A stretch of DNA of 64,000 bases, from the NCBI RefSeq assembly GCF_003991155.1, contig NZ_CP031293.1; one strand, 5' to 3'. A program made the position numbers and the translations under genes. The first letter of the stretch is position 1; the number at the start of each line of letters is the position of its first letter. Below the pieces are notes generated by a model that saw only the letters and a list, made by a program, of their open reading frames with translations, was not told where the DNA came from and did no database searches. Positions 4,373 to 23,263 of this stretch are shown in pieces. This DNA comes from Escherichia coli. GTDB taxonomy: Bacteria; Pseudomonadota; Gammaproteobacteria; Enterobacterales; Enterobacteriaceae.

Positions 4373-5437
4373 TTAGCGGTGATACTGTTCAGACAAGCGA
4401 TGCACTGCCTCCACAAACACGCCAGCATGTTCTGGCGGCACATCCTGATGAATGCCGTGACCAAGGTTAAAGACATGACCTTCGCCGTGACCGAAACCGG
4501 CAAGTATAGTCGCAACTTCTTCTTCAATGCGGGCAGGCGGTGCGTACAGCATCGACGGATCCATATTACCCTGCAACGCGACTTTATTGCCCACGCGGCG
4601 GCGCGCATCGGCGATGTCCGTTGTCCAGTCGAGGCCCAGCGCATCGCAACCGGTTTCTGCCATCGCTTCCAGCCACTGTCCGCCACCTTTGGTAAACAGC
4701 GTGACCGGTACGCGGCGACCGTCGTTTTCACGCAGTAAACCATCAACAATTTTATGCATGTAATAGAGCGAGAACTGTTGATAATCGCGCCCGGTAAGCA
4801 CGCCGCCCCAGGTGTCGAAAATCATCACTGCCTGAGCACCGGCTTTAATCTGCGCATTCAGATACAAAGTGACGCTTTTCGCCAGTTTATCGAGTAGCGC
4901 GTGCAGCGCCTGCGGATCGGCATACATCATTTTTTTGATCACGGTGAAGGCTTTGCTGCTGCCGCCTTCCACCATGTAGGTCGCCAGCGTCCACGGGCTG
5001 CCAGAAAAACCAATCAGCGGCACTTCGCCTTTCAGTTCGCGACGAATGGTACGCACCGCGTTCATCACGTAACCCAGCTCATCTTCCGGGTCCGGAATTG
5101 GCAGTTTATCGACGTCGGCTTTGCAGGTGACTGGCGAGGTAAAACGCGGACCTTCTCCGGCTTCAAAATAGAGCCCTAACCCCATCGCGTCCGGCACGGT
5201 GAGGATATCGGAAAAGAGGATCGCCGCATCCAGCGGGTAGCGACGCAGCGGTTGCAAAGTCACTTCGCACGCCAGCTCGGCGTTTTTGCACAGCGACATA
5301 AAATCGCCCGCCTGGGCGCGCGTGGCTTTATATTCCGGTAGATAGCGACCCGCCTGGCGCATCATCCATACTGGAGTGACATCAACGGGCTGGCGCAGCA
5401 GCGCCCGCAGATAACGATCGTTTTTAAGTTCGGTCAT
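4373..5437 (-). CDS. hemE: Uroporphyrinogen decarboxylase
   Basis: 354-aa [39 protein letters not shown] (URO-D signature). Confidence 0.96.
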
Positions 5438-6965: not shown

Positions 6966-7050
6966 AATCTGCTATCGCATCGCCTTTGCGGCGATCGTCT
7001 CTTGCTTCATCCGTCGTCTGACAAGCCACGTCCTTAACTTTTTGGAATGA

Positions 7051-9576
<2,526 letters not shown>

Positions 9577-9584
<8 letters not shown>

Positions 9585-10332
9585 CCGTGACTTTATGCGT
9601 TATAGCCGCCAAATCCTGCTCGACGATATCGCTCTGGACGGGCAGCAAAAACTGCTCGACAGCCAGGTGCTGATTATTGGTCTTGGCGGGCTGGGTACAC
9701 CTGCTGCGCTATACCTGGCGGGGGCTGGCGTCGGGACGCTGGTACTGGCAGATGACGACGATGTGCATTTAAGCAATCTGCAACGACAAATCCTCTTTAC
9801 CACTGAAGATATCGATCGCCCGAAATCACAGGTCAGCCAACAGCGACTGACACAGTTGAATCCCGACATTCAACTGATGGCATTACAACAACGATTAACG
9901 GGTGAGACGTTAAAAGATGCGGTTGCACAAGCCGATGTGGTGCTCGACTGTACTGACAATATGGCGACTCGCCAGGAGATTAATGCCACCTGCGTGGCAC
10001 TCAACACGCCGCTTATCACCGCCAGCGCGGTCGGATTTGGCGGTCAGTTGATGGTACTGACGCCGCCCTGGGAGCAGGGGTGTTACCGCTGCCTGTGGCC
10101 AGATAACCAGGAGCCAGAACGCAACTGCCGCACGGCGGGCGTGGTTGGCCCGGTGGTCGGGGTTATGGGCACTTTACAGGCACTGGAAGCGATTAAGTTA
10201 TTAAGCGGTATAGAGACGCCTGCGGGAGAACTCCGACTGTTCGACGGTAAATCGAGCCAGTGGCGCAGCCTGGCTTTGCGCCGCGCCAGCGGTTGCCCGG
10301 TATGTGGAGGATGCAATGCAGATCCTGTTTAA
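9577..10332 (+). CDS. thiF: ThiS adenylyltransferase ThiF
   Basis: Start set at [15 protein letters not shown] inside the longer track ORF (9484..); E1-like GLGGLG nucleotide motif and C-terminal CPVCG; 251 aa. Confidence 0.93.
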
Positions 10333-10516
10333 CGATCAACCGATGCAGTGTGTCGCCGGACTAACTGTTCACGAACTGCTGGAGCAACTCGATCAACAAC
10401 AAGCAGGTGCGGCACTGGCGATTAATCAGCAAATCGTCCCGCGGGAACAATGGGCGCAACATATCGTGCAGGATGGCGACCAGATCCTGCTTTTTCAGGT
10501 TATTGCAGGGGGTTGA
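10316..10516 (+). CDS. thiS: Sulfur-carrier protein ThiS
   Basis: 66-aa MQILFNDQ...QVIAGG with C-terminal Gly-Gly; start trimmed from the track ORF. Confidence 0.92.
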
Positions 10517-10517
10517 G

Positions 10518-11288
10518 ATGTTACGTATTGCGGACAAAACGTTTGATTCACATCTGTTTACCGGCACAGGGAAATTCGCCTCTTCACAACTGATGATGGA
10601 GGCGATCCGCGCTTCCGGCAGCCAGCTGGTGACACTGGCGATGAAACGCGTCAACTTGCGCCAGCACAACGACGCTATCCTCGAACCGCTTATCGCGGCG
10701 GGTGTGACCCTGCTGCCAAATACATCCGGGGCGAAAACAGCGGAAGAAGCCATTTTCGCTGCCCATCTGGCTCGTGAAGCGTTAGGCACAAACTGGCTAA
10801 AATTAGAGATTCACCCTGACGCCCGCTGGCTGTTGCCCGATCCCATCGAAACCCTGAAAGCTGCCGAAACGCTGGTACAACAGGGATTTGTCGTGCTGCC
10901 TTACTGCGGGGCCGATCCGGTATTGTGTAAACGTATGGAAGAAGTCGGCTGTGCAGCGGTGATGCCGCTCGGCGCGCCGATTGGCTCGAATCAGGGACTG
11001 GAAACCCGTGCCATGCTGGAGATTATTATCCAGCAAGCCACGGTTCCGGTGGTTGTCGATGCTGGCATCGGCGTTCCCAGCCATGCCGCGCAGGCGCTGG
11101 AAATGGGGGCCGACGCGGTGTTAGTGAATACGGCGATTGCCGTCGCGGACGATCCCGTCAACATGGCGAAGGCATTTCGTCTGGCAGTAGAAGCAGGCCT
11201 GCTGGCACGTCAGTCCGGACCGGGCAGCCGCAGTCATTTTGCTCATGCCACCAGCCCGCTGACCGGATTTCTGGAGGCATCTGCATGA
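10518..11288 (+). CDS. thiG: Thiazole synthase ThiG
   Basis: 256-aa protein starting [20 protein letters not shown]; ATG 1 nt after the thiS stop. Confidence 0.95.
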
Positions 11289-12418
11289 AAACCTTCAGCG
11301 ATCGCTGGCGACAACTGGACTGGGACGACATCCGCCTGCGTATCAACGGCAAAACGGCTGCTGACGTAGAGCGGGCGCTAAATGCCTCGCAACTCACCCG
11401 CGACGACATGATGGCATTGCTATCACCCGCCGCCAGTGGCTATCTGGAACCACTGGCCCAGCGAGCGCAGCGTCTGACCCGTCAGCGATTTGGCAACACA
11501 GTTAGTTTCTACGTCCCGCTTTATCTTTCCAATCTTTGCGCTAACGACTGCACGTACTGCGGATTTTCCATGAGCAATCGCATCAAGCGCAAAACACTGG
11601 ATGAAGCGGATATTGCCAGGGAAAGCGCCGCTATACGGGAGATGGGCTTTGAACATCTGCTTTTAGTCACTGGTGAACATCAGGCGAAAGTGGGGATGGA
11701 TTACTTTCGTCGTCATCTCCCTGCCCTGCGTGAACAGTTCTCTTCACTACAGATGGAAGTGCAACCGCTGGCGGAGGCGGAATATGCCGAGCTAAAACAG
11801 CTGGGTCTCGATGGCGTGATGGTTTATCAGGAGACATATCACGAGGCGACTTATGCCCGCCATCATCTGAAAGGCAAAAAACAGGACTTCTTCTGGCGGC
11901 TGGAAACGCCGGATCGGCTGGGCCGTGCGGGGATTGATAAGATAGGCCTCGGCGCGCTAATTGGCCTTTCCGACAGCTGGCGCGTTGACTGCTATATGGT
12001 TGCAGAACATTTGCTATGGCTGCAACAGCATTACTGGCAAAGCCGCTACTCTGTCTCCTTCCCACGCCTGCGTCCATGTACTGGCGGCATTGAGCCTGCG
12101 TCGATTATGGATGAACGCCAGTTAGTGCAAACCATCTGCGCCTTCCGGCTGCTTGCACCGGAGATTGAACTGTCACTCTCCACGCGGGAATCACCGTGGT
12201 TTCGCGATCGCGTGATTCCGCTGGCAATTAATAACGTCAGCGCTTTTTCGAAAACGCAGCCAGGTGGCTATGCCGACAATCACCCCGAGCTGGAACAGTT
12301 CTCACCACACGACGATCGCAGGCCGGAAGCGGTTGCTGCCGCGTTAACCGCTCAGGGTTTGCAGCCGGTATGGAAAGACTGGGACAGCTATCTGGGACGC
12401 GCCTCGCAAAGGCCATGA
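11285..12418 (+). CDS. thiH: 2-iminoacetate synthase ThiH (radical SAM tyrosine lyase)
   Basis: 377-aa ORF with the radical-SAM motif [10 protein letters not shown]; overlaps the thiG stop (ATGA). Confidence 0.96.
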
Positions 12419-12530
12419 GACAGAATGTAAGAACGTAAATTTATTCCGAGCCGCTACGGAAGATGAAAAACGCAAGGTTGTTGAAAGCGTTGTGTTTTTT
12501 TATGGTAGTGCCGTCAGCAGGAATGTTGTC

Positions 12531-12563
12531 CAGGGCGAAAAGCTTCTTCCTCGTTTCGCCCTG
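12531..12563 (+). terminator. Stem-loop (10-bp stem) downstream of thiH; candidate terminator or island-boundary structure
   Basis: CAGGGCGAAA-13 nt-TTTCGCCCTG perfect inverted repeat followed by CCTTTCTT. Confidence 0.35.
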
Positions 12564-12735
12564 CCTTTCTTAAAATAACGTCTCAGTACGCTATTTCATG
12601 ATTGCCCGCAAAAATATTCATTAATATTTCTATTGTTTTAACAAAGAAGGCACAAGGCTTTAATTGCAAAGCAAGATCGCCGTCAAAACAAGAGTGTGCA
12701 ATAACCGGTTATAATAATTCCACCCTCACCAAAAT

Positions 12736-13386
12736 ATGGTCCAGAACATCATGTCAGCTTACCTAAAAAAAGCGTTATCGATTCATAGTGATGAATTTCG
12801 CCCATACGGAAACGTAATTTCTGCAATAAATGTAGATTCATTGCTTAAATACCTTAAAGAGGAAATTTCTGTACCTGAGGATCAGGTGGCATATGTCAGA
12901 AGCGATGAGCGCTTAAAGCAATACCCCGCCGTGAGCGACATTCAGCGCCAAATCTACGGTGGAATGCCCGTTCAGGCTGGGTACGTTTGTGGGGTAAATA
13001 CCACCCAGGATGGCTTTGAATATCACCAGGGAAGTGAAGTCATTATCGCCGCCAGCGATTTTTTCCTGTTTTTAGGTAAACGAGAGTTGATGCAGGGTGA
13101 CACGTTTAATGGTGAACGTGCAGAGCCGTTTTTCATTCCGGCAAAATCGGTGATTGAACTTTATAGCACAACGCTACATTACTGCCCTATGAGTATCAAT
13201 GCACAACCTTTTAGTGCAGCGATTATTCTTCTTGATGGAACTAATGAAGATATTGATGGCAAGAATAAACCAACAATATTAAGCAAGCGAAATACCTGGT
13301 TTATCGCCCATGAAAGTTTCACTGAGCATCCTTGCCCATTATTAAAAGGGCCGCATCTTTGCGTGAATGATATTATTCATGGGTGA
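12736..13386 (+). CDS. Cupin-like protein of unknown function (ureidoglycolate-lyase-like N-terminal motif; possibly DUF4867-type)
   Basis: 216-aa ORF with no K-12 counterpart at this locus; AT-rich codon usage; motif EFRPYGNVI resembles the AllA-family N-terminus; alternative start at MSAYLKK (12751). Confidence 0.6.
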   Translation: MVQNIMSAYLKKALSIHSDEFRPYGNVISAINVDSLLKYLKEEISVPEDQVAYVRSDERLKQYPAVSDIQRQIYGGMPVQAGYVCGVNTTQDGFEYHQGSEVIIAASDFFLFLGKRELMQGDTFNGERAEPFFIPAKSVIELYSTTLHYCPMSINAQPFSAAIILLDGTNEDIDGKNKPTILSKRNTWFIAHESFTEHPCPLLKGPHLCVNDIIHG

Positions 13387-13390
13387 AAAT

Positions 13391-13410
13391 GGCGAAGATT
13401 TCTCTTCGCC
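13391..13410. terminator. Shared hairpin between convergent island genes
   Basis: GGCGAAGA-TTTC-TCTTCGCC perfect stem-loop in the 30-bp gap between the cupin-like gene stop (13386) and the hydrolase-like gene stop (13417). Confidence 0.5.
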
Positions 13411-13416
13411 TGTTCT

Positions 13417-16071
13417 TTACCCGGCAATTACCGCCACGCTGTCTTTTGTTCGCACGCGTGGTGGCATGGTCAGACCGCAGCGATCCCACTCATTCCCCTG
13501 CCATGCACTCGCAAAATAATAATGATTCGCTGCCGATGGGTAGACCACGACCGCCAGTTCATTACGCTTTTTTAGTAAAGACTGTGGCAAGGTGAAACGA
13601 TATTCCGGCCAGCCCTTTTCGGCAATTAACGTATCGTTAAGCCAGATAGCAACGCTTCCCTGCACTTGCGGTAAATAAAGCTCAATATCGTCGGTAATCG
13701 TCTCCAGCGCAAAGCGTAACTGATAATGTCCCGGACCACACCACGTCTCCATCCCCTGCTGCTCCCACCCTTTTGTTACCTCAACGGGTCGGGAAACGTT
13801 ATCAACCAGCAGTTGCCAGTGCTTATCCAGCACCACCTCGTGGCGACTTTCCACTACCTGCAATGAAAAGCAACGGGCCTGCCAGGGCTCGATTTGTAGC
13901 GGATAACTTCCCGTGAGATGCTCTTCCAGCACTGAAACCTCTCCCGTTGCAAGATGCCACTCCGACAACTGCCCACTGAGGCCCGGAAAATGTAGCCAGC
14001 CGTAGAGCGGGGTATCTCCGTCGTTAAATACGCTGACGTAACGCGATGTTTCATCCTGGGTAATTCGCGTCCAGACGGCAGTTTTCCGGGAGGGATAGTC
14101 AACAAAGGGGTGATCGTTTTTCAGCGTGTCGGCTAACGTGCTGCACTGCGGTTGCGCCTCAATCAGTTTTTGCAGCCTTTCGGTGAGAGAACGATCTTCA
14201 CCTTTTTCCTCGCTATATGCCGCAAGCTCGCCGGCGATCAGAAGCTGGCCACCAGCGGCGACAAAGTGCTCCAGTTGGCTCAGCGTGGCGGCTGATTTCA
14301 CCACCTTAACGTCCGCTAACAGAAGCGCAGGGAAATTCATGCCGTTAATGCGCGTTCCATCAGCCTGGAGCAAATTCTCTTCATCAATAAAGAAATATTC
14401 AAATCCCTGAGCGCTGAGTTGTTTTGCCCAATATTCGCCTGACTGCCCTTCGTTGCCATCCACGCCACAGTGCCAGAAAGTCCGTTTGGGATAGAGTACG
14501 CCAACATCAACGTACGGCTCTCCCTGCTCAAGAAATTCGGCAAGGCGACCAGATTCCTGAGCAAACCCAGCGTGGAAGGCGTACCAGGGCTGGAAGTTAA
14601 CGCCCGGCGCAAAATCAAAACGCGGGTTACTTAATACGTCGTCATTTGCCTCGCCATCCGTCAGCCAGAACGCGTGCATCAAAAATTGCCGCGCACCGAG
14701 GAGGTGATGGCGCAATGCCTGCAACCGGATGTCATGCAGTGAAATTTCCCACTGCCCGGCAGCAAAATGTGTGCATGGCTTCACCCGCGCATAATATTGC
14801 TCAACAATGCACCCTTTACGCCCATGAGCGCGCGCCACAGAGTCGCCAACCTTCGCCGCCATCTGCGGCTCGCTATTTCGCGAATCGACAGCCGTAATAT
14901 CCCGCCAGCCATCGAGAGCAAAGTAATCCATAGCAAAATTACACCGGTTATCTTCGGTGATGATTTTACTGGCGAAATTCCAGCTACTAACGTGACCTAA
15001 TACTTCATGACCACTTAGCTGTATTCCCCGCTGGTGCGCCCATTCTGACAACGTACCAAAAAAGGCCTGCATCGCCTGGCTGGAATAACAGGAAAGCAGC
15101 TCACAGCGCCGACGTGCGGTACGACTGCCAATGTCCATAACTAACGACATCAGGTTTTCTGCCAGGCAGTAAGGTGCCTGTTGCAATGCATCAACAAACC
15201 TTTTTTCATACATTAAGGAGGATTTGACCGCGCCAGTATGTTCATTCCATTGCCAGAAACAGGCGTGTGGCTGGTCGAAAAAGAGATACGCCACCGTCTT
15301 ACCAAAATGATCGCCAAAAGCGCGGGCGTAAGGTTCATAGCCGACACGAATAAAATTTTCTGCCGCTTCGGGCATCAGGTAATTAATCATCCGTGAGGTC
15401 AAGCAACGCGCCGCGGCAAAGAGCGTCACTACCGTTTCCGCACCCCAGGGCAGGTCGCTTCCCGTAAAGGTGACCTCAAATTCCTCTGTGGTTGCTTTGG
15501 TGATGCGGGCCAATGAAGAAACATCAACAATTTCATCTGCATTGCACTCCCCTGATGAAGAGGTGGCATACGCTGCGACAATTTCCCATTCATCCCACGC
15601 CGGTTTACCGCCAGCAAAAATCCACTCCATTCCACACTGCTGTAGCGCCTGCGCATCCGCAGAGCGGATCCCGGAAAGGTGACATGTCAGTACATCTGCA
15701 GACCGGCTGGACTGGCTCCAGAAAAGATGGCGCTCACGCAGCTCATCTCTCCCTTCAACGGTCCTTCCCCCGGCGTGCCCGGAAAGCCAGTTGTAATCAT
15801 CGTAGATGCCCATCATCAGCCCAATATTGGCAGCTTTATCAGCCGTGTAGCGACAGGCTGCCAGCCACTCCTCACTGAGATAACTCTCCAGCGGAAGACT
15901 CAGACGTGCGGCTATCTGAAATGAACCATACCCTCCCGCCTGCAGTTGCCTCAGTTGGCTGTCGATCTGCTTTTTGTCCGGAATGGTATGCCAGAACCAG
16001 TAGGTTGCAGGCAGGTGCCATACATCAGGATTTTTAAAGTTTTGGCGTGCCTGTGCTAACGAATCATTCAT
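13417..16071 (-). CDS. Large cytoplasmic hydrolase-like protein (putative glycoside hydrolase, family unassigned)
   Basis: Track ORF 13417..16104; start chosen at MNDSLAQARQ (ATG at 16071) because of the AGGGGGAAAGCC RBS 6 nt upstream; 884 aa; no signal peptide; C-terminal region looks beta-sandwich/carbohydrate-binding-like; no K-12 homolog recalled. Confidence 0.75.
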   Translation of the reverse strand: MNDSLAQARQNFKNPDVWHLPATYWFWHTIPDKKQIDSQLRQLQAGGYGSFQIAARLSLPLESYLSEEWLAACRYTADKAANIGLMMGIYDDYNWLSGHAGGRTVEGRDELRERHLFWSQSSRSADVLTCHLSGIRSADAQALQQCGMEWIFAGGKPAWDEWEIVAAYATSSSGECNADEIVDVSSLARITKATTEEFEVTFTGSDLPWGAETVVTLFAAARCLTSRMINYLMPEAAENFIRVGYEPYARAFGDHFGKTVAYLFFDQPHACFWQWNEHTGAVKSSLMYEKRFVDALQQAPYCLAENLMSLVMDIGSRTARRRCELLSCYSSQAMQAFFGTLSEWAHQRGIQLSGHEVLGHVSSWNFASKIITEDNRCNFAMDYFALDGWRDITAVDSRNSEPQMAAKVGDSVARAHGRKGCIVEQYYARVKPCTHFAAGQWEISLHDIRLQALRHHLLGARQFLMHAFWLTDGEANDDVLSNPRFDFAPGVNFQPWYAFHAGFAQESGRLAEFLEQGEPYVDVGVLYPKRTFWHCGVDGNEGQSGEYWAKQLSAQGFEYFFIDEENLLQADGTRINGMNFPALLLADVKVVKSAATLSQLEHFVAAGGQLLIAGELAAYSEEKGEDRSLTERLQKLIEAQPQCSTLADTLKNDHPFVDYPSRKTAVWTRITQDETSRYVSVFNDGDTPLYGWLHFPGLSGQLSEWHLATGEVSVLEEHLTGSYPLQIEPWQARCFSLQVVESRHEVVLDKHWQLLVDNVSRPVEVTKGWEQQGMETWCGPGHYQLRFALETITDDIELYLPQVQGSVAIWLNDTLIAEKGWPEYRFTLPQSLLKKRNELAVVVYPSAANHYYFASAWQGNEWDRCGLTMPPRVRTKDSVAVIAG

Positions 16072-17563
16072 GGCTTTCCCCCTTCTTAATCGGCGGAACA
16101 TCACAATGACAAATGTATGTCAAAATGGCATACAGCGCCGCGCCCACCAGCATCGCCACCACTACGCCAATATTTGCTGTCGCAAACACGCTGGTTTTGG
16201 TTTCTGCCGTCAGTAAGAAGCCGACCAGGTGAGCAATCCACGGATCGCCTGAGGTGATGGTTCCCATGCCGATAACCGATGCAACAAACAGCGATAATAA
16301 TGCCGTCCAGCGACCGTTACGCCCGCCAAGCCCCGCGGGCTGCGCCATATCAGTGTTCCAGTGCAAGCGTTTTTGCCGGGCAAAGTCGACAAGCTGGATT
16401 GCGCCCATCGATCCCAATACGACGGATACCGTTGCCAGAAAAGACTGAAAGGTTGCGAGGAACGAGTCAGAAACAAACAATAAGTAGAAGGCACCGAATG
16501 CGATAATGACCGCATTGATAGCAGTGGTGGTTGAACGACTGGCTGGAACGCCCATTGCCAGCAATGCGAGGCCTGAGCTGTAAACACCTGTAATGGCTGC
16601 CGCCAGCAGGGAGATGATGATCACGATTGAAAACGGCACATAGAACCAAAACGGCAGGAACGAGGTTAAGGCCGCAATCGGTTCGGACGCTGCTGCTCCG
16701 CTCAGTTCCGGGTTACTGTCGGCCAGCAGGGCACCTAAAATCAGCAGGATGGAAACCGGAAGCGAAATCCCAAGCGACGTCCAGAAAATCACTTTCCCGG
16801 CAGCGGTTTTGCGCGGCAGGTAACGGGCGAAATCACCGCCATAGTTGAGAAAGCCCAGCCCAACCATCGTCATTGCCATCACCATGCCGCCGATAAACGT
16901 TAAAAATCCGGCATCGGGAGCAGCACCCGCCTGCGACCAGTGAATATGTGGCAGGATCAGGATAATAAAGATGATGCTCATTCCGCCCGTTAACCATGCA
17001 ATATACTTTTCTACCTTCATGATGAGCTGGTGGCCGTAGATGGCAACGGACATAGTCAATACTAAGGTCACCACGAACCAGCCCAACAGGCACCCTAAGG
17101 TAGGGTGACCGTTTTCTGCTGCAAATACGGTTGGCCATAACCGGGCAAAGAGGGCGGCGCCAGTGGTCGAGGACAACGTAATAATGGTGATTTTCCAGCC
17201 CATATTGGAAATATAGGCAAATAAAGTGGGGATCTTATTCCCATGATAACCAAAGGCAAATCGGGTCTGCGTTAAGGTAGGCAGCCCGGTGCGTGGCCCA
17301 CCAACGGCCAGAACCCCCACCAGCGTGCTGGATAAAAAATAGCCCACGACACCGGCAACAATCGCCTGCCAGAGGCTTAACCCCAGTGAGTAAACATAAA
17401 TCCCATAGGTAATACCGAGGATGGATACATTCCATGAAAACCAGATCGGGAAAAGTCCGGCAGGCGAACCATAACGTTCGTTATCACTAACCGGGTTTAC
17501 CCCATTGGTTTCCACCTTCATCGTACCTGAAACATCAGATGGGTTCTGGGCTTGGCTCGTCAT
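16064..17563 (-). CDS. NCS1-family (nucleobase/nucleoside/vitamin:cation symporter) permease
   Basis: Start set at MTSQAQNPSD after a GAGAGGAAAT RBS within the longer track ORF; about 499 aa, highly hydrophobic with multiple predicted TM helices; resembles purine-cytosine/allantoin/hydantoin permeases. Confidence 0.8.
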   Translation of the reverse strand: MTSQAQNPSDVSGTMKVETNGVNPVSDNERYGSPAGLFPIWFSWNVSILGITYGIYVYSLGLSLWQAIVAGVVGYFLSSTLVGVLAVGGPRTGLPTLTQTRFAFGYHGNKIPTLFAYISNMGWKITIITLSSTTGAALFARLWPTVFAAENGHPTLGCLLGWFVVTLVLTMSVAIYGHQLIMKVEKYIAWLTGGMSIIFIILILPHIHWSQAGAAPDAGFLTFIGGMVMAMTMVGLGFLNYGGDFARYLPRKTAAGKVIFWTSLGISLPVSILLILGALLADSNPELSGAAASEPIAALTSFLPFWFYVPFSIVIIISLLAAAITGVYSSGLALLAMGVPASRSTTTAINAVIIAFGAFYLLFVSDSFLATFQSFLATVSVVLGSMGAIQLVDFARQKRLHWNTDMAQPAGLGGRNGRWTALLSLFVASVIGMGTITSGDPWIAHLVGFLLTAETKTSVFATANIGVVVAMLVGAALYAILTYICHCDVPPIKKGESHE

Positions 17564-17564
17564 T

Positions 17565-18782
17565 TTATTTCCTCTCATATTGAGCAAGACGTGATAGTAC
17601 GGCTTCATACTCAGGCATGTTCGATGCGCCTTCCCGCTCGACCGCCAGAGAAGCAAACGCAGAGGCAAATTTTGCTGCACTGAGCAACGGCTGGCCCTGC
17701 GCAATCGCCGCAGCAAACGCACCGTTAAACGCATCCCCCGCACCGGTGGTGTCAATACTTACTGCTTTTAACGCTGGAATATGGGTAAATTGTTCACCGT
17801 CATAAATCAGCGCCCCTTGAGAACCCATCGTAATAATGATGTTTTTTGCCCCCAGGGATTTTATGGTTTGCGCCGCTTCTTTCGCACTCTCGATATCATT
17901 AATCTCGACACCGGACATCAGCGACGCTTCTGTTTCATTCGGTGTCAGATAATCAACATATTGCAGGCATTCTTTTGCCTGGTCAGAATAAGGGGCTGGG
18001 TTAAGGATAGTTTTCACGCCCGACCGATGTGCCATATTTAGTGCCAGCGTGGTTGCTTCAAAGTTATTTTCCAACTGTGTCAAAAATATTTTGGCGTCCG
18101 TCAACTCACCCGCAATACTGGCAACTTCCGCTTCAGTGATATATTGATTGGCGCCAGAATAAATCGCGATCTTGTTTTCACCAGCAGGCTCCGAAACATA
18201 TATTATGGCGCTTCCTGTTTTATGCTCTTCGTCCTGGTAGAGGGTAAAGCTGCGGATATCGGATGAAGAGAGATGATCATGCGCCATCTGGCCGAAATGG
18301 TCGTTGCCAACTTTGCCGACGAAGTGTACCTGGACGGGACATTTGCTGGCTGCCATCGCCTGGTTTGCGCCCTTGCCGCCAGGTCCAATGATGGTATTGC
18401 TGGCAAGAATTGATTCGCCGCTTTTAGGGAAGCGATCAACTTTGGCAATAATATCGACATTAAAAGATCCTAATATACAAACTTTGCTTATCATTATTTT
18501 CCCTTTTTTGTTTGTCATCGAGTTTTTTCGCCAGTTGACCTGATTGAGGAACTTTTCAATAGAGGTACCAACGTTATTAACGGGCTGAGAATGGAAAATC
18601 CGACGCAATATTATTGCTCCGCCGTGACAACGCTCAACACCCCCTTGCTCCGCTAATAAATTTAAATCATTACGGATCGTTTCTTTACTGACAGAGAATA
18701 AGATGGCGAGTTGATTAACCGTAGCCCGCTCATGTTTATTCAAATATGCCAATATTTGACGTTGTCTTTCTTTCCCAAACAT
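17565..18782 (-). CDS. DeoR-type HTH domain fused to a ribokinase/PfkB-family carbohydrate kinase domain
   Basis: 405-aa ORF; N-terminal about 60 aa ERQRQILAYLNKHERATVNQLAILFSVSKETIRNDLNLLAEQGGVERCHGGAI is a DeoR-family HTH; C-terminal about 305 aa carries PfkB motifs GPGGKGANQA and DTTGAGDAFNGAF; GAGGTG RBS; stop 1 nt before the permease ATG. Confidence 0.8.
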   Translation of the reverse strand: MFGKERQRQILAYLNKHERATVNQLAILFSVSKETIRNDLNLLAEQGGVERCHGGAIILRRIFHSQPVNNVGTSIEKFLNQVNWRKNSMTNKKGKIMISKVCILGSFNVDIIAKVDRFPKSGESILASNTIIGPGGKGANQAMAASKCPVQVHFVGKVGNDHFGQMAHDHLSSSDIRSFTLYQDEEHKTGSAIIYVSEPAGENKIAIYSGANQYITEAEVASIAGELTDAKIFLTQLENNFEATTLALNMAHRSGVKTILNPAPYSDQAKECLQYVDYLTPNETEASLMSGVEINDIESAKEAAQTIKSLGAKNIIITMGSQGALIYDGEQFTHIPALKAVSIDTTGAGDAFNGAFAAAIAQGQPLLSAAKFASAFASLAVEREGASNMPEYEAVLSRLAQYERK

Positions 18783-18987
18783 GATTTCACCTCACGTAAC
18801 ATTTATATCTTTTGTAATTTTCTGATTCCATGAATCCTTTCACACTACCATCACGAAAACAAAAACAAACGGGAATTTTTGGAGGAAAGGTTTTTTTATT
18901 CAATGGGATAGTGAGAGGGGAATGTTGTTTTGAAAAAACACTCCCGAAAAATGCGTGGGAAAGCGCTTTCAATCGTAAACGGAATGC

Positions 18988-19019
18988 AAAAAAAAGCCAG
19001 TCAGTGTGACCTGACTGGC
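18988..19019 (-). terminator. rpoC rho-independent terminator
   Basis: GCCAGTCAG-GTCACA-CTGACTGGC hairpin followed by a T8 run on the minus strand, 20 nt downstream of the rpoC stop. Confidence 0.85.
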
Positions 19020-19039
19020 TTATTTCTTAAGAAGAGCGA

Positions 19040-22000
19040 TTACTCGTTATCAGAACCGCCCAGACCTGCGTTCAGCAGTTCTGCCAGGCTGGCAGATGCG
19101 TCTTCTGCAGTCACCTGCGGTGCAGCCGGAGCTTCACCCGCAGCACGGCGACGCATACGATCCTGGTGGTACGCGTAACCGGTACCTGCCGGGATCAGAC
19201 GACCCACGATAACGTTCTCTTTCAGGCCGCGCAGTTCGTCGCGTTTGCCCGCAACGGCTGCTTCGGTCAGCACGCGAGTGGTCTCCTGGAACGATGCCGC
19301 GGAGATGAAGGACTCGGTTGCCAGAGACGCTTTGGTGATACCCAGCAGATCGCGGGAGTAAGTTGCACCCACTTTGCCGTTCGCTTCCAGTTCGCGGTTT
19401 GCGATCTTGACGCGAGAGTATTCAACCTGTTCACCTTCCAGGAAGTCGGAGCTGCCCGCGTTAACGATGGTAGCTTTACGCAGCATCTGACGAACGATAA
19501 CTTCGATGTGTTTATCGTTAATCTTAACGCCCTGCAGACGGTATACGTCCTGTACTTCGTTAACGATGTAACGAGTCACAGCATGAACACCACGCAGACG
19601 CAGAATGTCGTGCGGCGCTTCCGGACCGTCGGAAATTACGTCACCACGTTCTACACGTTCACCTTCGAACACGTTGAGTTGACGCCATTTCGGAATCATC
19701 TCTTCGTACGGATCGCTACCGTCTACCGGGGTGATAACCAGACGACGTTTACCTTTGGTTTCTTTACCGAAGGAAACGATACCGCTGATTTCAGCCAGGA
19801 TTGCCGGCTCTTTCGGACGACGTGCTTCGAACAGGTCCGCAACGCGCGGCAGACCACCGGTGATGTCCTTGGTACCGCCGGATTCCTGCGGAATACGCGC
19901 CAGGGTGTCACCAGAGCTGATCTGTACGCCATCTTCCAGCTGAACAATCGCTTTACCCGGCAGGAAGTACTGCGCAGGCATATCGGTACCCGGGATCAGA
20001 ACATCGTTACCCTGAGCATCAACGATTTTCAGCGCCGGACGCAGATCTTTACCACCTGCGGTACGTTCTGCGGAATCCAGAACCACCAGCGAAGACAGAC
20101 CGGTCAATTCGTCGGTCTGACGAGTAATGGTCTGGCCGTCGATCATGTCAGTAAAGCGTACAAAACCGCTTACTTCGGTGATAACCGGCATGGTGTGCGG
20201 GTCCCAGTTTGCAACGGTTTCGCCGCCAGCAACCTGTTCGCCATCGCCTTTCGCCAGTACCGCACCGTAAGGTACTTTGTAGCTTTCTTTGGTACGACCG
20301 AATTCGTCGATCAGTTTCAGTTCGGTGTTACGGGAAGTGATAACCAGTTTACCGCTGGAGTTCACAACCGACTTCACGTTGCTGAGCTTGATGCTACCTT
20401 TGTTTTTCACCTGGATGCTGGATTCAGCAGCCGCACGAGATGCCGCACCACCGATGTGGAACGTACGCATGGTCAGCTGTGTACCCGGTTCACCGATGGA
20501 CTGTGCCGCGATAACACCGATTGCTTCACCTTTGTTGATGAGGTGGCCACGCGCCAGGTCACGACCGTAGCAGTGCGCACATACACCAAAGTCGGTGTCA
20601 CAAGATACAACAGAACGTACTTTAACCGCGTCGACAGAGTTCTCTTCCAGCAGGTCACACCACTGTTCGTGCAGCAGCGTGTTGCGCGGAACGAGGATAT
20701 CAGCAGTACCCGGCTTCAGAACGTCTTCAGCAGTTACACGACCCAATACGCGATCGCGCAGCGGCTCTTTAACGTCACCACCCTCGATAACCGGAGTCAT
20801 CATGATACCTTCATGGGTACCACAATCGTCTTCGGTAACCACCAGGTCCTGCGCCACGTCAACCAGACGACGAGTCAGGTAACCGGAGTTCGCAGTTTTC
20901 AGTGCGGTATCCGCCAGACCTTTACGAGCACCGTGGGTGGAGATGAAGTACTGGAGTACGTTCAGACCTTCACGGAAGTTCGCGGTGATTGGCGTTTCGA
21001 TGATGGAGCCATCCGGCTTCGCCATCAGACCACGCATACCAGCAAGCTGACGAATCTGTGCCGCAGAACCACGCGCACCGGAGTCGGCCATCATGTAGAT
21101 GCTGTTGAAGGAAACCTGCTTCTCTTCCTGACCGTCACGGTTAATAACGGTTTCAGTTTGCAGGTTATCCATCATCGCTTTGGATACACGATCGTTCGCC
21201 GCAGCCCAGATATCGATAACTTTGTTGTAGCGTTCGCCCGCAGTTACCAGACCAGACTGGAACTGCTCCTGAATTTCAGCAACTTCTGCTTCTGCCTCGG
21301 AGATGATTTCGTGTTTCTTCTCCGGGATGACCATGTCATCGATACCAACAGATGCACCAGAACGCGCTGCATAGGCGAAGCCGGTGTACATGATCTGGTC
21401 CGCAAAAATAACGGTCGGTTTCAGACCGAGAATGCGGTAGCAGGTGTTCAGCATTTTGGAGATTGCTTTCTTACCCAGCGCCTGGTTGACGATGGAGTAA
21501 GGCAGACCTTTCGGTACAATCATCCACAGAATGGCACGGCCAACGGTCGTATCTTTCAGGCTGGTTTTCGCTACTAATTCACCGTTAGCATCTTTTTCAT
21601 ACTCGGTGATACGCACTTTAACGCGCGCATGCAGAGAAGCCAGACCAGAGCGATACAGACGTTCTGCTTCTTTCGGGCCAGTCAGCACCATGCCTTCGCC
21701 TTTGGCGTTAACACAGTCGCGGGTCATGTAGTACAGACCCAGTACAACGTCCTGAGACGGAACGATGATTGGTTCGCCGTTCGCCGGGGACAGGATGTTG
21801 TTGGTAGACATCATCAGCGCACGCGCTTCCAGCTGGGCTTCCAGCGTCAGCGGTACGTGAACAGCCATCTGGTCACCATCGAAGTCGGCGTTATATGCCG
21901 CACAAACCAGCGGGTGCAGCTGGATAGCTTTACCTTCGATCAGTACCGGTTCAAATGCCTGGATACCCAGACGGTGCAGAGTCGGTGCACGGTTCAGCAG

Positions 22001-23263
22001 TACCGGGTGTTCGCGGATAACTTCGTCCAGGATATCCCAAACGACAGCTTCTTCGCGCTCAACCATTTTCTTCGCAGCTTTAATGGTGGTAGCAAGACCA
22101 CGCAGTTCCAGCTTGCCGTAGATGAACGGTTTGAACAGTTCCAGTGCCATTTTCTTCGGCAGACCGCACTGATGCAGACGCAGGTATGGACCTACGGTGA
22201 TTACAGAACGACCGGAGTAGTCAACACGCTTACCGAGCAGGTTCTGACGGAAACGACCCTGTTTACCTTTGATCATGTCGGCCAAAGATTTCAGAGGACG
22301 CTTGTTAGAACCAGTGATCGCACGACCGCGACGACCGTTATCCAGCAGGGCGTCTACCGCTTCCTGCAGCATACGTTTTTCGTTACGTACGATGATATCT
22401 GGCGCAGCCAGATCCAGCAGACGTTTCAGACGGTTGTTACGGTTAATGACGCGACGATACAGATCGTTCAGGTCAGAAGTCGCGAAACGACCACCATCCA
22501 GCGGAACCAGCGGACGCAGATCTGGCGGCAGTACCGGCAGAACGGTCAGGATCATCCACTCTGGTTTGTTACCAGACTGAACGAACGCTTCCAGCAGTTT
22601 GATACGCTTGGTCAGCTTTTTACGCTTGGTTTCGGAGTTGGTTTCGTTCAGCTCTTCACGCAGCTGTTCGCACTCTTGCTCCAGATCCATGCTCTTCAGC
22701 AGGGCCTGGATTGCTTCCGCACCCATCTTCGCGTCGAATTCGTCACCGAACTCTTCCAGCGCGTCCAGATACTGCTCTTCAGTCAGGATCTGCTGACGCT
22801 CCAGGTTGGTCATACCGCCTTCGATAACCACATAGGATTCGAAGTACAGTACGCGTTCGATATCGCGCAGCGGCATATCGAGCAGCAGGCCGATACGGGA
22901 CGGCAGCGATTTCAGGAACCAGATGTGCGCAGTCGGGGAAGCCAGTTCGATGTGGCCCATACGCTCACGGCGTACTTTAGTCTGGGTCACTTCAACACCG
23001 CACTTCTCACAGATGACGCCACGGTGTTTCAGGCGCTTGTACTTACCGCACAGGCACTCGTAATCTTTTACCGGCCCAAAGATACGGGCGCAGAAAAGGC
23101 CGTCACGTTCTGGTTTGAACGTACGGTAGTTGATGGTTTCCGGCTTTTTAACTTCACCGAAAGACCATGAACGGATCATGTCTGGCGAAGCCAGAGCAAT
23201 TTTGATCGCATCAAACTCTTCGGTTTTAGTCTGCGCTTTCAGAAACTTTAATAAATCTTTCAC
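19040..23263 (-). CDS. rpoC: RNA polymerase beta' subunit
   Basis: 1407-aa [36 protein letters not shown]...; NADFDGD catalytic motif. Confidence 0.99.

What the first reader, a model, noticed from the sequence alone, without database searches (positions are those of the whole stretch)
18783..19039. The htrC/yjaZ position of K-12 is occupied by the island promoter region; no htrC-like ORF is present
Immediately downstream of the rpoC terminator, K-12 carries htrC (yjaZ) on the same strand as rpoC. Here that space is a 257-bp non-coding stretch leading straight into the DeoR::kinase gene, and no ORF of suitable size or orientation exists. The island has therefore either replaced htrC or K-12 htrC is a remnant of a larger ancestral locus.
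Basis: partly seen in the sequence, partly recalled or inferred. Interest (0 to 1): 0.35.

Follow-up and report, generated by a model that had tools for sequence, protein, structure and literature searches.

The report
Alternative gene cassette downstream of rpoC
The gap after the RNA polymerase gene rpoC, which in laboratory E. coli K-12 holds the small gene yjaZ (htrC), here holds an unrelated four-gene sugar-use module with its own terminator and promoter; this is a natural, old either/or variant of that site and an ordinary kind of genome variation.

Summary
Window 18783-19039 is a 257-bp non-coding spacer between the rpoC stop codon and a DeoR-HTH::ribokinase gene. No YjaZ/HtrC homologue occurs anywhere in the 64 kb, and K-12 does carry yjaZ at this site on the rpoC strand.

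The spacer holds a strong intrinsic terminator for rpoBC that differs from the K-12 terminator. It also holds a phylogenetically footprinted promoter/operator region for a deoR-rbsK / NCS1 permease / GH106-like hydrolase operon.

Everything between 3 nt past the rpoC stop and the thiH terminator (12576-19036) is non-homologous to K-12. Among 5,426 complete E. coli genomes three alleles cover nearly all: yjaZ+sroH (3,738), short "empty" (1,630) and this module (49, including IAI39 and CE10).

The same module sits in the same interval in E. whittamii, E. albertii, a cryptic Escherichia, some Salmonella serovars and a Citrobacter. It has no integrase, IS or flanking repeats. So it is an old cassette allele, most likely exchanged by homologous recombination, not a recent island.

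yjaZ shares no similarity with it and belongs to a patchy, often plasmid-borne family, so it is not a remnant of this locus. Which allele replaced which in E. coli stays unresolved. Interest is low to moderate.

The parts
19040..23263 (-). rpoC coding sequence. The stop codon TAA is at 19042-19040. Homology with K-12 and ST131 continues only to 19037.
18988..19021 (-). 'Type B' intrinsic terminator of rpoBC: AAGCCAGTCAGG-TCACAC-CTGACTGGCTT followed by a run of T. It differs in sequence from the K-12/ST131 'type A' terminator (AAAAACCCGCTTCGGCGGGTTTTTTT).
   Evidence: Terminator scan finds 11 pairs, 6 of them GC. Predicted dG is -22.6 against -15.2 kcal/mol for type A. The stem sequence is conserved in E. 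whittamii, Salmonella and L043. Both types recur across Enterobacteriaceae.
18977..18984 (-). Distal TTCCGTTT box, a candidate second operator, 202 nt upstream of the ATG.
   Evidence: It is conserved in Salmonella just after the point where homology resumes. It is changed to TTCTGTTT in E. whittamii.
18875..18903 (-). Candidate promoter P1: TTGAAT (18903-18898), 17-bp spacer, AAAAAT (18880-18875).
   Evidence: The hexamers and the spacing are conserved while the spacer sequence varies, across six lineages. L043 has CTGAAT and TAAAAT. It falls below the threshold of the simple promoter scan.
18854..18875 (-). Proximal operator-like box TTCCCGTTTGTTTTTGTTTTCG. This is the proposed binding site of the HTH_DeoR domain.
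   Evidence: It is invariant or nearly so in all orthologous loci. A TTCC(C)GTTT box also lies 84-103 nt upstream of paralogous HTH_DeoR::PfkB genes that head other operons in Salmonella, Rahnella and Dickeya.
18829..18844 (-). CRP-like box TGTGAAAGGATTCATG, which overlaps the palindrome GATTC-N3-GAATC.
   Evidence: It is conserved in all orthologous loci at a fixed 62 nt from the ATG, and it sits 41.5 nt upstream of the start predicted from the TATAAA -10. The match alone is not rarer than chance.
18802..18807 (-). Candidate -10 (TATAAA) of promoter P2. The predicted start is near 18795.
   Evidence: Orthologues have TATAAA or TATAAC. The Salmonella ABC-type paralogue has TAATAT at the same offset, read from the output.
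18780..18793 (-). Shine-Dalgarno GAGGTG (18793-18788) and the ATG (18782-18780) of deoR-rbsK.
17565..18782 (-). HTH_DeoR::PfkB ribokinase-like gene (405 aa), the first gene of the operon.
   Evidence: The HTH part is under purifying selection, dN/dS 0.03-0.06.
16064..17563 (-). NCS1-family permease (499 aa).
13417..16071 (-). 884-aa protein with no Pfam domain. Its C-terminal part is distantly similar to GH106 rhamnosidases.
   Evidence: 6q2f 2e-20; 5mwk/5mqm 1e-15
12751..13386 (+). DUF4867 cupin protein (211 aa), on the opposite strand to and convergent with the operon.
12576..19036 (.). The whole allele-specific cassette (6,461 bp), non-homologous to K-12 and ST131.
12419..12575 (+). Block downstream of thiH that is shared by all three alleles (two hairpins, the thi operon terminator region). 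It is the left boundary of the cassette.

Best explanation
The 257 bp are the 5' control region of one of three alternative, mutually non-homologous alleles of the rpoC-thiH interval.

Read on the minus strand the spacer contains the following. (i) Right after the rpoC stop comes a strong rho-independent terminator for rpoBC, in a 'type B' sequence form that travels with this allele. (ii) Then comes the promoter/operator region of a deoR-HTH::ribokinase / NCS1 permease / GH106-like hydrolase operon.

I infer a sigma-70 promoter (TTGAAT-17-AAAAAT) whose start region is covered by a TTCCCGTTTG-TTTTTG-TTTTCG operator bound by the N-terminal DeoR-type HTH of the first gene product. The attached kinase would serve as the sugar-sensing domain. 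A second, CRP-dependent class II promoter (CRP-like box at -41.5, TATAAA -10) would lie just upstream of the Shine-Dalgarno.

yjaZ and sroH are absent because the entire stretch from 3 nt past the rpoC stop to the thiH terminator is a different cassette. It is not absent because of a local deletion or an insertion by a mobile element.

The alleles are exchanged within and between species by homologous recombination in the conserved flanks. The module allele has occupied this site across the family for longer than yjaZ has been seen there. K-12 yjaZ is an unrelated accessory gene from a family that is otherwise often plasmid-borne.

Shown: the anatomy, the breakpoints, the allele frequencies, the synteny in other species, the conserved boxes, and the lack of homology to yjaZ. 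Inferred: promoter use, CRP and HTH binding, the recombination mechanism, and the polarity of replacement.
For: Breakpoints lie at 19036/19037 and 12575/12576, and the terminator differs from K-12 and ST131.

Three alleles account for 5,417 of 5,426 complete E. coli genomes. The module is in 49, all >=99% identical, chromosomal and single copy. The yjaZ CDS is in 3,738. The ST131-type short spacer is in 1,630.

The module lies in the same rpoC-thiH interval in several other taxa. In E. whittamii it is collinear over 11.7 kb at 94.8% identity. It is also there in Salmonella enterica, E. albertii, Citrobacter sp. and Escherichia sp. MOD1. A 68%-identity relative has the same arrangement.

Inside Escherichia the module's dS (0.14-0.28) is similar to that of thiH, thiG and thiC (0.15-0.32).

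Incongruent distances show transfer between species, always into the same site. Module dS is 0.155 for F-albertii, below 0.248 for F-whittamii. It is 0.119 for Salmonella-Citrobacter, although their rpoC dS is 0.242.

There is no integrase or IS in the cassette, and only a chance-level 8-mer repeat at its edges.

The terminator is supported, and its stem is conserved.

The conserved boxes sit at fixed distances in six orthologous lineages, and the TTCC(C)GTTT box recurs upstream of three paralogous HTH::PfkB operons. The HTH is under purifying selection.

The YjaZ family is patchy and plasmid-associated. A characterised protein of the same architecture is RikA/STM3547 (PMC13432705).
Against: No transcription start, CRP-binding or HTH-binding data exist. 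The simple promoter scan found no site on the minus strand inside the spacer.

The CRP-like match (2 mismatches) is no rarer than chance in the window: 18 observed against 26 expected. P2 would leave a leader of only about 13 nt.

For RikA the authors found that the HTH part was apparently not made under their conditions.

No recombination tract is visible in the flanks. The last 177 bp of rpoC are identical to K-12. The thi flank is E. coli-like but is hyperdiverse in every pairwise comparison. Recombination is therefore inferred from the breakpoints and the distribution, not seen directly.

Polarity in E. coli is unresolved, because the yjaZ allele is also old. Strain E69, whose rpoC 3' end is as diverged from E. 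coli (97.3%) as E. albertii's is, carries it at 92.6% nt identity.

Species sampling is thin. The genome-contig scan returned only 26 loci and missed many Escherichia representatives.
Confidence: 0.75

Rival explanations
1. Ancestral retention. The module allele was present at this site in the common ancestor of E. coli and its sister Escherichia lineages. A subset of phylogroup F kept it. The other E. coli lineages had it replaced by the type A terminator allele, with or without yjaZ. On this view K-12 is the derived state, and the reader's polarity is reversed.
For: Module dS against E. whittamii (0.23-0.27) and Escherichia sp. MOD1 (0.18-0.28) matches the flanks (0.15-0.32). The albertii-whittamii module distance (0.247) equals the E. 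coli-whittamii distance (0.248). That fits E. albertii having received its copy from the E. coli side. The module is at the same site in three genera, whereas yjaZ at this site was seen only in Escherichia.
Against: It requires replacement in, or spread of the other allele through, about 99% of E. coli. The yjaZ allele is itself old. rpoC dS is a poor clock because of codon bias. Only 49 genomes carry the module, and they are almost identical to each other.
Confidence: 0.45
2. Re-acquisition. The E. coli ancestor carried the type A allele (yjaZ or empty). A phylogroup F sublineage then imported the module from another Escherichia lineage by homologous recombination, and this replaced htrC.
For: Carriers are rare (0.9%) and >=99% identical. 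The module in F is closer to E. albertii's copy (dS 0.155) than the thi flanks are (0.19-0.32). The module clearly moves between species, for example Salmonella-Citrobacter at 0.119. Cassette GC is 49.3% against 53-56% in the flanks.
Against: No sampled donor is close; the nearest is dS 0.155. The flanks right up to the breakpoints are E. coli-like: rpoC is 100% identical over the last 177 bp and the thiH-side block is 99.4% identical to K-12.
Confidence: 0.3
3. K-12 yjaZ (and sroH) is a degraded remnant of this larger locus.
For: Only the shared position supports this.
Against: There is no protein or nucleotide similarity between the K-12 cassette and the module. YjaZ matches its own full-length family model at 430 bits over residues 1-179 of 179. 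Intact 178-187-aa homologues occur in other genera and on plasmids.
Confidence: 0.02
4. The 257 bp encode something other than a terminator and promoter, such as a small protein, an sRNA or a riboswitch leader.
For: A 61-aa ORF lies on the rpoC strand. A 14-codon ORF (ATGGAATCA...TGA) ends inside the Shine-Dalgarno, read. If P1 is used, an 86-nt leader would exist.
Against: The Rfam search at E<=1 found only a sub-threshold Thr_leader match (25.7 bits against a gathering score of 55) on the wrong strand. The 61-aa ORF region carries indels and heavy divergence between lineages. The 14-codon ORF loses its ATG in L043, and its substitutions are not biased to third positions (read).
Confidence: 0.05

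Closest known systems
E. coli K-12 rpoC-yjaZ-sroH-thiH interval
   Same: The flanks are the same: rpoC up to 3 nt past its stop, and the thiH terminator block. There is also an intrinsic terminator directly after rpoC, followed by a same-strand gene.
   Different: Terminator sequence type A is replaced by type B. 1,001 bp (yjaZ + sroH) are replaced by 6,461 bp with four unrelated genes. No residual similarity remains.
RikA (STM3547) of Salmonella Typhimurium, a PfkB ribose kinase with an annotated N-terminal DeoR-type domain (PMC13432705)
   Same: The architecture and length are the same (about 404-405 aa; HTH_DeoR residues ~2-57 plus a PfkB kinase). It is also the first gene of an uncharacterised transporter-plus-hydrolase cluster. 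An internal Met lies near residue 90.
   Different: The chromosomal locus and partner genes differ (glutamine amidotransferase, DMT transporter, phosphotriesterase). Sequence identity to RikA was not measured here. For RikA the HTH part seemed not to be made. Here the HTH has a conserved Shine-Dalgarno and dN/dS of 0.03-0.06.
Canonical DeoR-family repressors (DeoR, GlpR, AgaR, SrlR)
   Same: The N-terminal DeoR-type HTH (PF08220). Putative operators are T-rich repeats near the promoter, possibly at two separated sites.
   Different: The C-terminal DeoRC sugar-phosphate sensor domain is absent and is replaced by a complete kinase.
CRP-dependent class II catabolic promoters (from general knowledge)
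   Same: A TGTGA-N6-TCA box centred 41.5 nt upstream of the predicted start, a weak -35 and a good -10.
   Different: The right half-site is poor (TCATG) and there are no binding data. The match is not significant on its own.
Strain-variable integration hot spots of the E. coli chromosome (from general knowledge of E. coli comparative genomics)
   Same: Alternative gene content sits between two conserved core genes, and diversity is elevated in one flank (the thi operon).
   Different: There is no tRNA, integrase, phage or IS. Only three alleles were seen, and the boundary falls exactly at a stop codon and a terminator.

Membership tests
YjaZ/HtrC family (NCBIfam NF007263, Pfam PF27200) | An ORF in the window with sequence similarity to YjaZ | tested here: not met
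   tblastn of K-12 YjaZ against all six frames of the 64 kb gives a best E of 0.55. The K-12 protein itself scores 430 bits on NF007263.
SroH small RNA (part of the K-12 cassette) | Sequence similarity to K-12 sroH or an Rfam match | tested here: not met
   blastn of the K-12 spacer matches only the 158 bp next to thiH, not the sroH part. No Rfam match at E<=1 in 12300-19300. That an sroH model is in Rfam is my recollection.
Intrinsic (rho-independent) terminator | A GC-rich hairpin followed by a T/U run, directly downstream of the stop codon on the gene's strand | tested here: met
   An 11-bp stem with 6 GC pairs followed by a T run, 18 nt after the rpoC stop, with dG -22.6 kcal/mol. The stem is conserved in four lineages.
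Intrinsic (rho-independent) terminator | Termination demonstrated in vivo or in vitro | not testable with these tools
   Needs 3'-end mapping.
Sigma-70 promoter with CRP class II activation | -10 and -35 hexamers with 16-18 bp spacing | tested here: inconclusive
   P1 matches 8 of 12 positions with a 17-bp spacer. P2 has a good -10 (TATAAA) and a weak -35. Neither passes the scan threshold. Both are conserved in position across lineages.
Sigma-70 promoter with CRP class II activation | A CRP box (TGTGA-N6-TCACA) centred at -41.5 | tested here: inconclusive
   The geometry is exact relative to the TATAAA -10 and the box is conserved. However, a match with 2 mismatches is not rarer than chance.
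DeoR family of transcription regulators | N-terminal DeoR-type HTH | tested here: met
   PF08220 at 1.1e-17, residues 6-59.
DeoR family of transcription regulators | C-terminal DeoRC effector-binding domain | tested here: not met
   Residues 100-389 are a PfkB kinase (6e-72). No DeoRC match was found.
Ribokinase (TIGR02152) / RikA-like HTH::PfkB proteins | A score above the curated ribokinase cutoff, and the substrate and catalytic motifs | tested here: met
   313.5 bits against a cutoff of 299.65. The NVD, GGKGANQA, NETE and DTTGAGD motifs are present (motif identities are from my knowledge of E. coli RbsK). The architecture is shared by many Enterobacterales proteins.
Ribokinase (TIGR02152) / RikA-like HTH::PfkB proteins | Ribose kinase activity and DNA binding | not testable with these tools
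   Enzyme assay and EMSA are needed.
Mobile genomic island | Integrase or transposase, tRNA or att site, flanking direct repeats | tested here: not met
   The cassette has four metabolic or regulatory genes only. There is a single 8-mer repeat at chance level. No tRNA is annotated or needed at the borders. GC is 49.3% against 53-56%.
Glycoside hydrolase family 106 (for the 884-aa protein) | Sequence match to GH106 across the catalytic domain | tested here: inconclusive
   No Pfam hit for this protein. A profile built from 24 homologues matches GH106 structures only over positions ~555-876. A few homologues carry PF17132.

The most novel reading that the evidence does not exclude
HTH_DeoR::ribokinase proteins (this gene, RikA and hundreds of Enterobacterales relatives) may be one-component 'enzyme-as-sensor' regulators. 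They would bind a shared TTCC(C)GTTT operator and switch on different transporter-plus-hydrolase operons that release ribose from as yet unknown ribosides or glycosides. The operon here, with an NCS1 permease, a large hydrolase only remotely like GH106 and a DUF4867 cupin, would then be a new catabolic pathway. It would be carried as an old, exchangeable allele right behind the essential rpoBC operon, together with its own version of the rpoBC terminator.
Probability: 0.3. Interest if true: 0.5.

Novelty: new member of a known kind. Interest (0 to 1): 0.25.

Why it matters
This mostly matters as a correction. The K-12 gene order rpoC-yjaZ-thiH is not universal in E. coli. About 31% of complete genomes lack yjaZ, so neither yjaZ nor sroH is a core gene.

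The terminator of the essential rpoBC operon exists in two unrelated sequence forms within E. coli and across Enterobacteriaceae. Strain comparisons of rpoBC 3'-end behaviour should take this into account.

The site illustrates how non-mobile cassettes can be swapped between species through conserved flanks. It also gives a concrete, testable operator motif and promoter model for the little-studied HTH::ribokinase (RikA-like) proteins.

Tried and rejected
(1) Rfam search of 12300-19300 at E<=1. It returned only a sub-threshold Thr_leader match on the plus strand, so there is no riboswitch or sRNA assignment.

(2) Small ORFs in the spacer (61 aa, and a 14-codon ORF). They are not conserved as coding sequence.

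(3) Repeats or mobility genes at the cassette borders. None were found beyond a chance 8-mer.

(4) Statistical support for the CRP box from the pattern alone. It fails, with 18 observed against 26 expected. The claim rests on conservation and geometry only.

(5) A search for a recombination tract in the flanks by sliding identity to K-12, ST131, E. albertii, MOD1 and E. whittamii. The flanks are E. coli-like right up to the breakpoints. The thi operon is hyperdiverse in every pairwise comparison, including K-12 against ST131, so no tract could be called.

(6) YjaZ as a phage or defence gene. There was no PHROG, PADLOC or phage-genome match.

(7) The genome-contig scan with the rpoC 3'-end pattern returned only 26 loci. 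It missed the E. coli type-strain, E. albertii and E. fergusonii representatives. Absence in that set therefore says little. The other species were reached through protein clusters instead.

(8) Sequence search of the PDB with the single 884-aa protein found nothing. Only the profile search reached GH106.

(9) The literature holds nothing on this allele polymorphism and very little on yjaZ.

(10) In one search my E. whittamii thiH coordinates were off by one codon and gave meaningless values. The earlier protein-guided estimate (0.319) is the one used.

Full report
**What is there**

The window matches E. coli 2016C-3878 (NZ_CP029747.1) at 100% over the 6.9 kb queried (window 12300-19200), read so that rpoBC is on the minus strand and thiCEFSGH on the plus strand. 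rpoC occupies 19040-23263 (-).

The next gene on that strand, 17565-18782, encodes a 405-aa protein. It has an N-terminal DeoR-type HTH (PF08220, 1e-17) and a complete PfkB kinase. The kinase passes NCBI's ribokinase model (313.5 bits against a cutoff of 299.65) and keeps the usual RbsK motifs.

The stretch between the two genes is exactly the 257 bp of the finding.

YjaZ has no homologue anywhere in the window. The best six-frame hit has E = 0.55, and the K-12 spacer matches only over the 158 bp next to thiH.

**Breakpoints**

Alignment of K-12, an ST131 genome and the window shows shared sequence on the thiH side up to window 12575. That is 157 bp past the thiH stop and ends just after a hairpin plus T-rich run.

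On the rpoC side the shared sequence reaches only 19037, 3 nt past the stop codon.

The K-12/ST131 terminator (AAAAACCCGCTTCGGCGGGTTTTTTT, 'type A') is absent here. A different hairpin takes its place (AAGCCAGTCAGG/CTGACTGGCTT followed by a T run, 'type B', 19021-18988). It has 11 pairs and a predicted dG of -22.6 kcal/mol against -15.2 for type A.

The variable unit is therefore 12576-19036 (6,461 bp), and it includes the rpoBC terminator itself.

It holds four genes:
- the HTH::kinase;
- an NCS1 permease;
- an 884-aa protein with no Pfam domain, whose homologue profile reaches GH106 rhamnosidase structures over its C-terminal third;
- a DUF4867 cupin on the opposite strand.

According to PMC11968277, the function of DUF4867 proteins is still unknown. 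A role as a sugar mutarotase or ring isomerase has been proposed.

No integrase, IS or tRNA is present, and there is no meaningful repeat at the edges.

**Distribution in E. coli**

| Allele | Genomes of 5,426 | Source |
|---|---|---|
| Module | 49 (all >=99% identical, chromosomal, single copy) | |
| yjaZ CDS | 3,738 (chromosomal only) | |
| ST131-type short spacer | 1,630 | |

The short spacer is the type A terminator joined to the thiH block. It differs from K-12 by an indel of about 920 bp.

The three alleles together cover 5,417 genomes. The module carriers include IAI39 and CE10. I recall these as phylogroup F, which was not tested here.

**Other species**

The module lies in the same rpoC-thiH interval in:
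- E. whittamii, collinear over 11.7 kb at 94.8% identity;
- Salmonella enterica, in rare serovars such as Orientalis, Warragul, Dortmund and Solt;
- E. albertii, Escherichia sp. MOD1-EC7003 and a Citrobacter sp.;
- an unnamed enterobacterial scaffold, as a relative whose 884-aa-type protein is 68% identical to the one here.

Inside Escherichia the module's synonymous divergence (0.14-0.28) is similar to that of thiH, thiG and thiC (0.15-0.32). It is therefore not a recent arrival.

The distances are nevertheless not fully tree-like:

| Pair | Module dS | rpoC dS |
|---|---|---|
| F - E. albertii | 0.155 | 0.107-0.126 |
| F - E. whittamii | 0.248 | 0.074 |
| E. albertii - E. whittamii | 0.247 | 0.130-0.146 |
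| Salmonella - Citrobacter | 0.119 | 0.242 |
| Escherichia - Salmonella | about 0.49 | about 0.29 |

The thi genes between Escherichia and Salmonella are above 1. The module has therefore moved between species several times, each time into the same interval. Without any mobility genes, that points to homologous recombination through the conserved flanks. This is an inference.

**The yjaZ allele is old too**

E. coli strain E69 has an rpoC 3' end 97.3% identical to E. coli, about as diverged as E. albertii's. It carries the type A terminator plus a yjaZ cassette at 92.6% nucleotide identity to K-12.

Both terminator types, and a third one, recur across Enterobacteriaceae.

**What yjaZ is**

YjaZ has its own family model. 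Its homologues are scattered in Enterobacterales, Aeromonas, Oceanimonas and cyanobacteria.

The 78%-identical E. fergusonii copy lies on an 88-kb extrachromosomal-looking record beside RdgC, a Dam-type methylase and HigB. A 63%-identical copy lies on large plasmids among Tn3, IS1 and resolvase genes. 559 plasmid records encode a relative.

It has no similarity to any module gene. 'Remnant of a larger ancestral locus' is therefore rejected.

Which allele replaced which in E. coli remains open. I lean slightly towards retention of the module in its carriers, because the E. whittamii and MOD1 distances match the flanks. Re-acquisition is not excluded.

**How the 257 bp most likely work**

After the terminator, alignment of six orthologous lineages shows islands of conservation in otherwise diverged or unalignable sequence:
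- TTGAAT, 17 bp, AAAAAT (L043 has CTGAAT and TAAAAT);
- directly abutting it, TTCCCGTTTG(T/C)TTTTGTTTT;
- GTGTGAAAGGATTCAT(G/A)GAATC;
- TATAAA (or TATAAC);
- GTGAGGTGAAA before the ATG.

The TTCC(C)GTTT box also occurs 84-103 nt upstream of three paralogous HTH_DeoR::PfkB genes that head quite different operons:
- an ABC transporter plus ADP-ribosylglycohydrolase in Salmonella;
- a DHDPS-like gene, DUF386 and an MFS transporter in Rahnella and Dickeya.

A second copy sits 202 nt upstream of the ATG here (18984-18977). That recurrence is the best evidence that the box is the operator of this HTH type.

The TGTGA-N6-TCA box is centred exactly 41.5 nt upstream of the start predicted from the TATAAA -10. 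That is class II CRP geometry. The match by itself is no rarer than chance, and the resulting leader would be only about 13 nt.

The HTH segment is under purifying selection as strong as on the kinase (dN/dS 0.03-0.06), so it is presumably made and used.

The only studied protein of this architecture is RikA of S. Typhimurium. It is a ribose kinase whose HTH part seemed not to be produced in the laboratory (PMC13432705).

No Rfam family fits the spacer, and its small ORFs are not conserved as coding sequence.

**Verdict**

The evolutionary reading is only partly right. This is an old three-allele cassette polymorphism of the rpoC-thiH interval that includes the rpoBC terminator. It is not an island insertion, and yjaZ is unrelated to it. 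It is an ordinary kind of variation. It has some value as a correction to the K-12-centred view and as a lead on HTH::ribokinase regulators.

Noticed in passing
window ~7000-12400 (thiC-thiH): The thi operon is unusually diverse inside E. coli. Identity is 93-98% in 500-bp bins between the window, K-12 and ST131, and which strain is closest alternates in a mosaic pattern. The rpoBC side is about 99% or more.
   Followed up: partly
window 12419-12575: The 157 bp downstream of thiH are shared by all three alleles. They are more conserved than thiH itself (98.1% against 93% to E. whittamii). They hold two hairpins and have no Rfam match.
   Followed up: partly
L037-L042 (Salmonella), about 4760-5090 of L040: The Salmonella copies carry about 330 bp of extra sequence between the rpoC terminator and the operon promoter. 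Homology resumes at the distal TTCCGTTT box. No Rfam family matches. Small ORFs with no Pfam hit on record are called there in some records.
   Followed up: partly
L048 4510-4968 (E. albertii CP117583.1): An IS200/IS605-type Y1 transposase gene is inserted in the rpoC/deoR-rbsK spacer of one E. albertii genome but not of another (L049).
   Followed up: no
L054 3789-5288 (IAI39); hits H74-H76, H78, H79: In five of the 49 carriers (IAI39, CE10, AR_0013, N32 and NZ_OZ546943.1) the match is 1 base shorter, and the NCS1 permease gene is annotated as two pieces. The operon appears to be decaying in that sublineage.
   Followed up: partly
L055, L056, L057 (5001 = gene start): HTH_DeoR::PfkB genes head unrelated operons, all with a TTCC(C)GTTT box upstream. 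In Salmonella the operon has an ABC transporter and an ADP-ribosylglycohydrolase. In Rahnella and Dickeya it has a DHDPS-like gene, DUF386 and an MFS transporter.
   Followed up: partly
L004-L029, first 100 nt after rpoC: The rpoBC terminator exists in at least three unrelated sequence types across Enterobacteriaceae. Type B also occurs in genomes without the module (UBA5654, Tenebrionibacter, 'Enterobacteriaceae bacterium 89', C. amalonaticus).
   Followed up: partly
L040 about 5190-5215: One Salmonella genome has an extra TTTTGT unit inside the operator-like T-rich repeat. The box tolerates, or varies by, 6-bp slippage.
   Followed up: no
L030 (E. fergusonii CP099330.1), L033-L036: yjaZ homologues lie on plasmid-like replicons. 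Neighbours include toxin-antitoxin, RdgC, methylase, UmuD-like, Tn3 and IS1 genes. 371 of the 559 plasmid hits are from Klebsiella.
   Followed up: partly
L043 10885-16458; L050/L051 11870-12497: In the 68%-identity relative and in Citrobacter, further sugar genes (PTS IIA/IIB/IIC, GH4, GntR, SIS) lie between the module and thiH. The interval accumulates catabolic cassettes in other genera as well.
   Followed up: no
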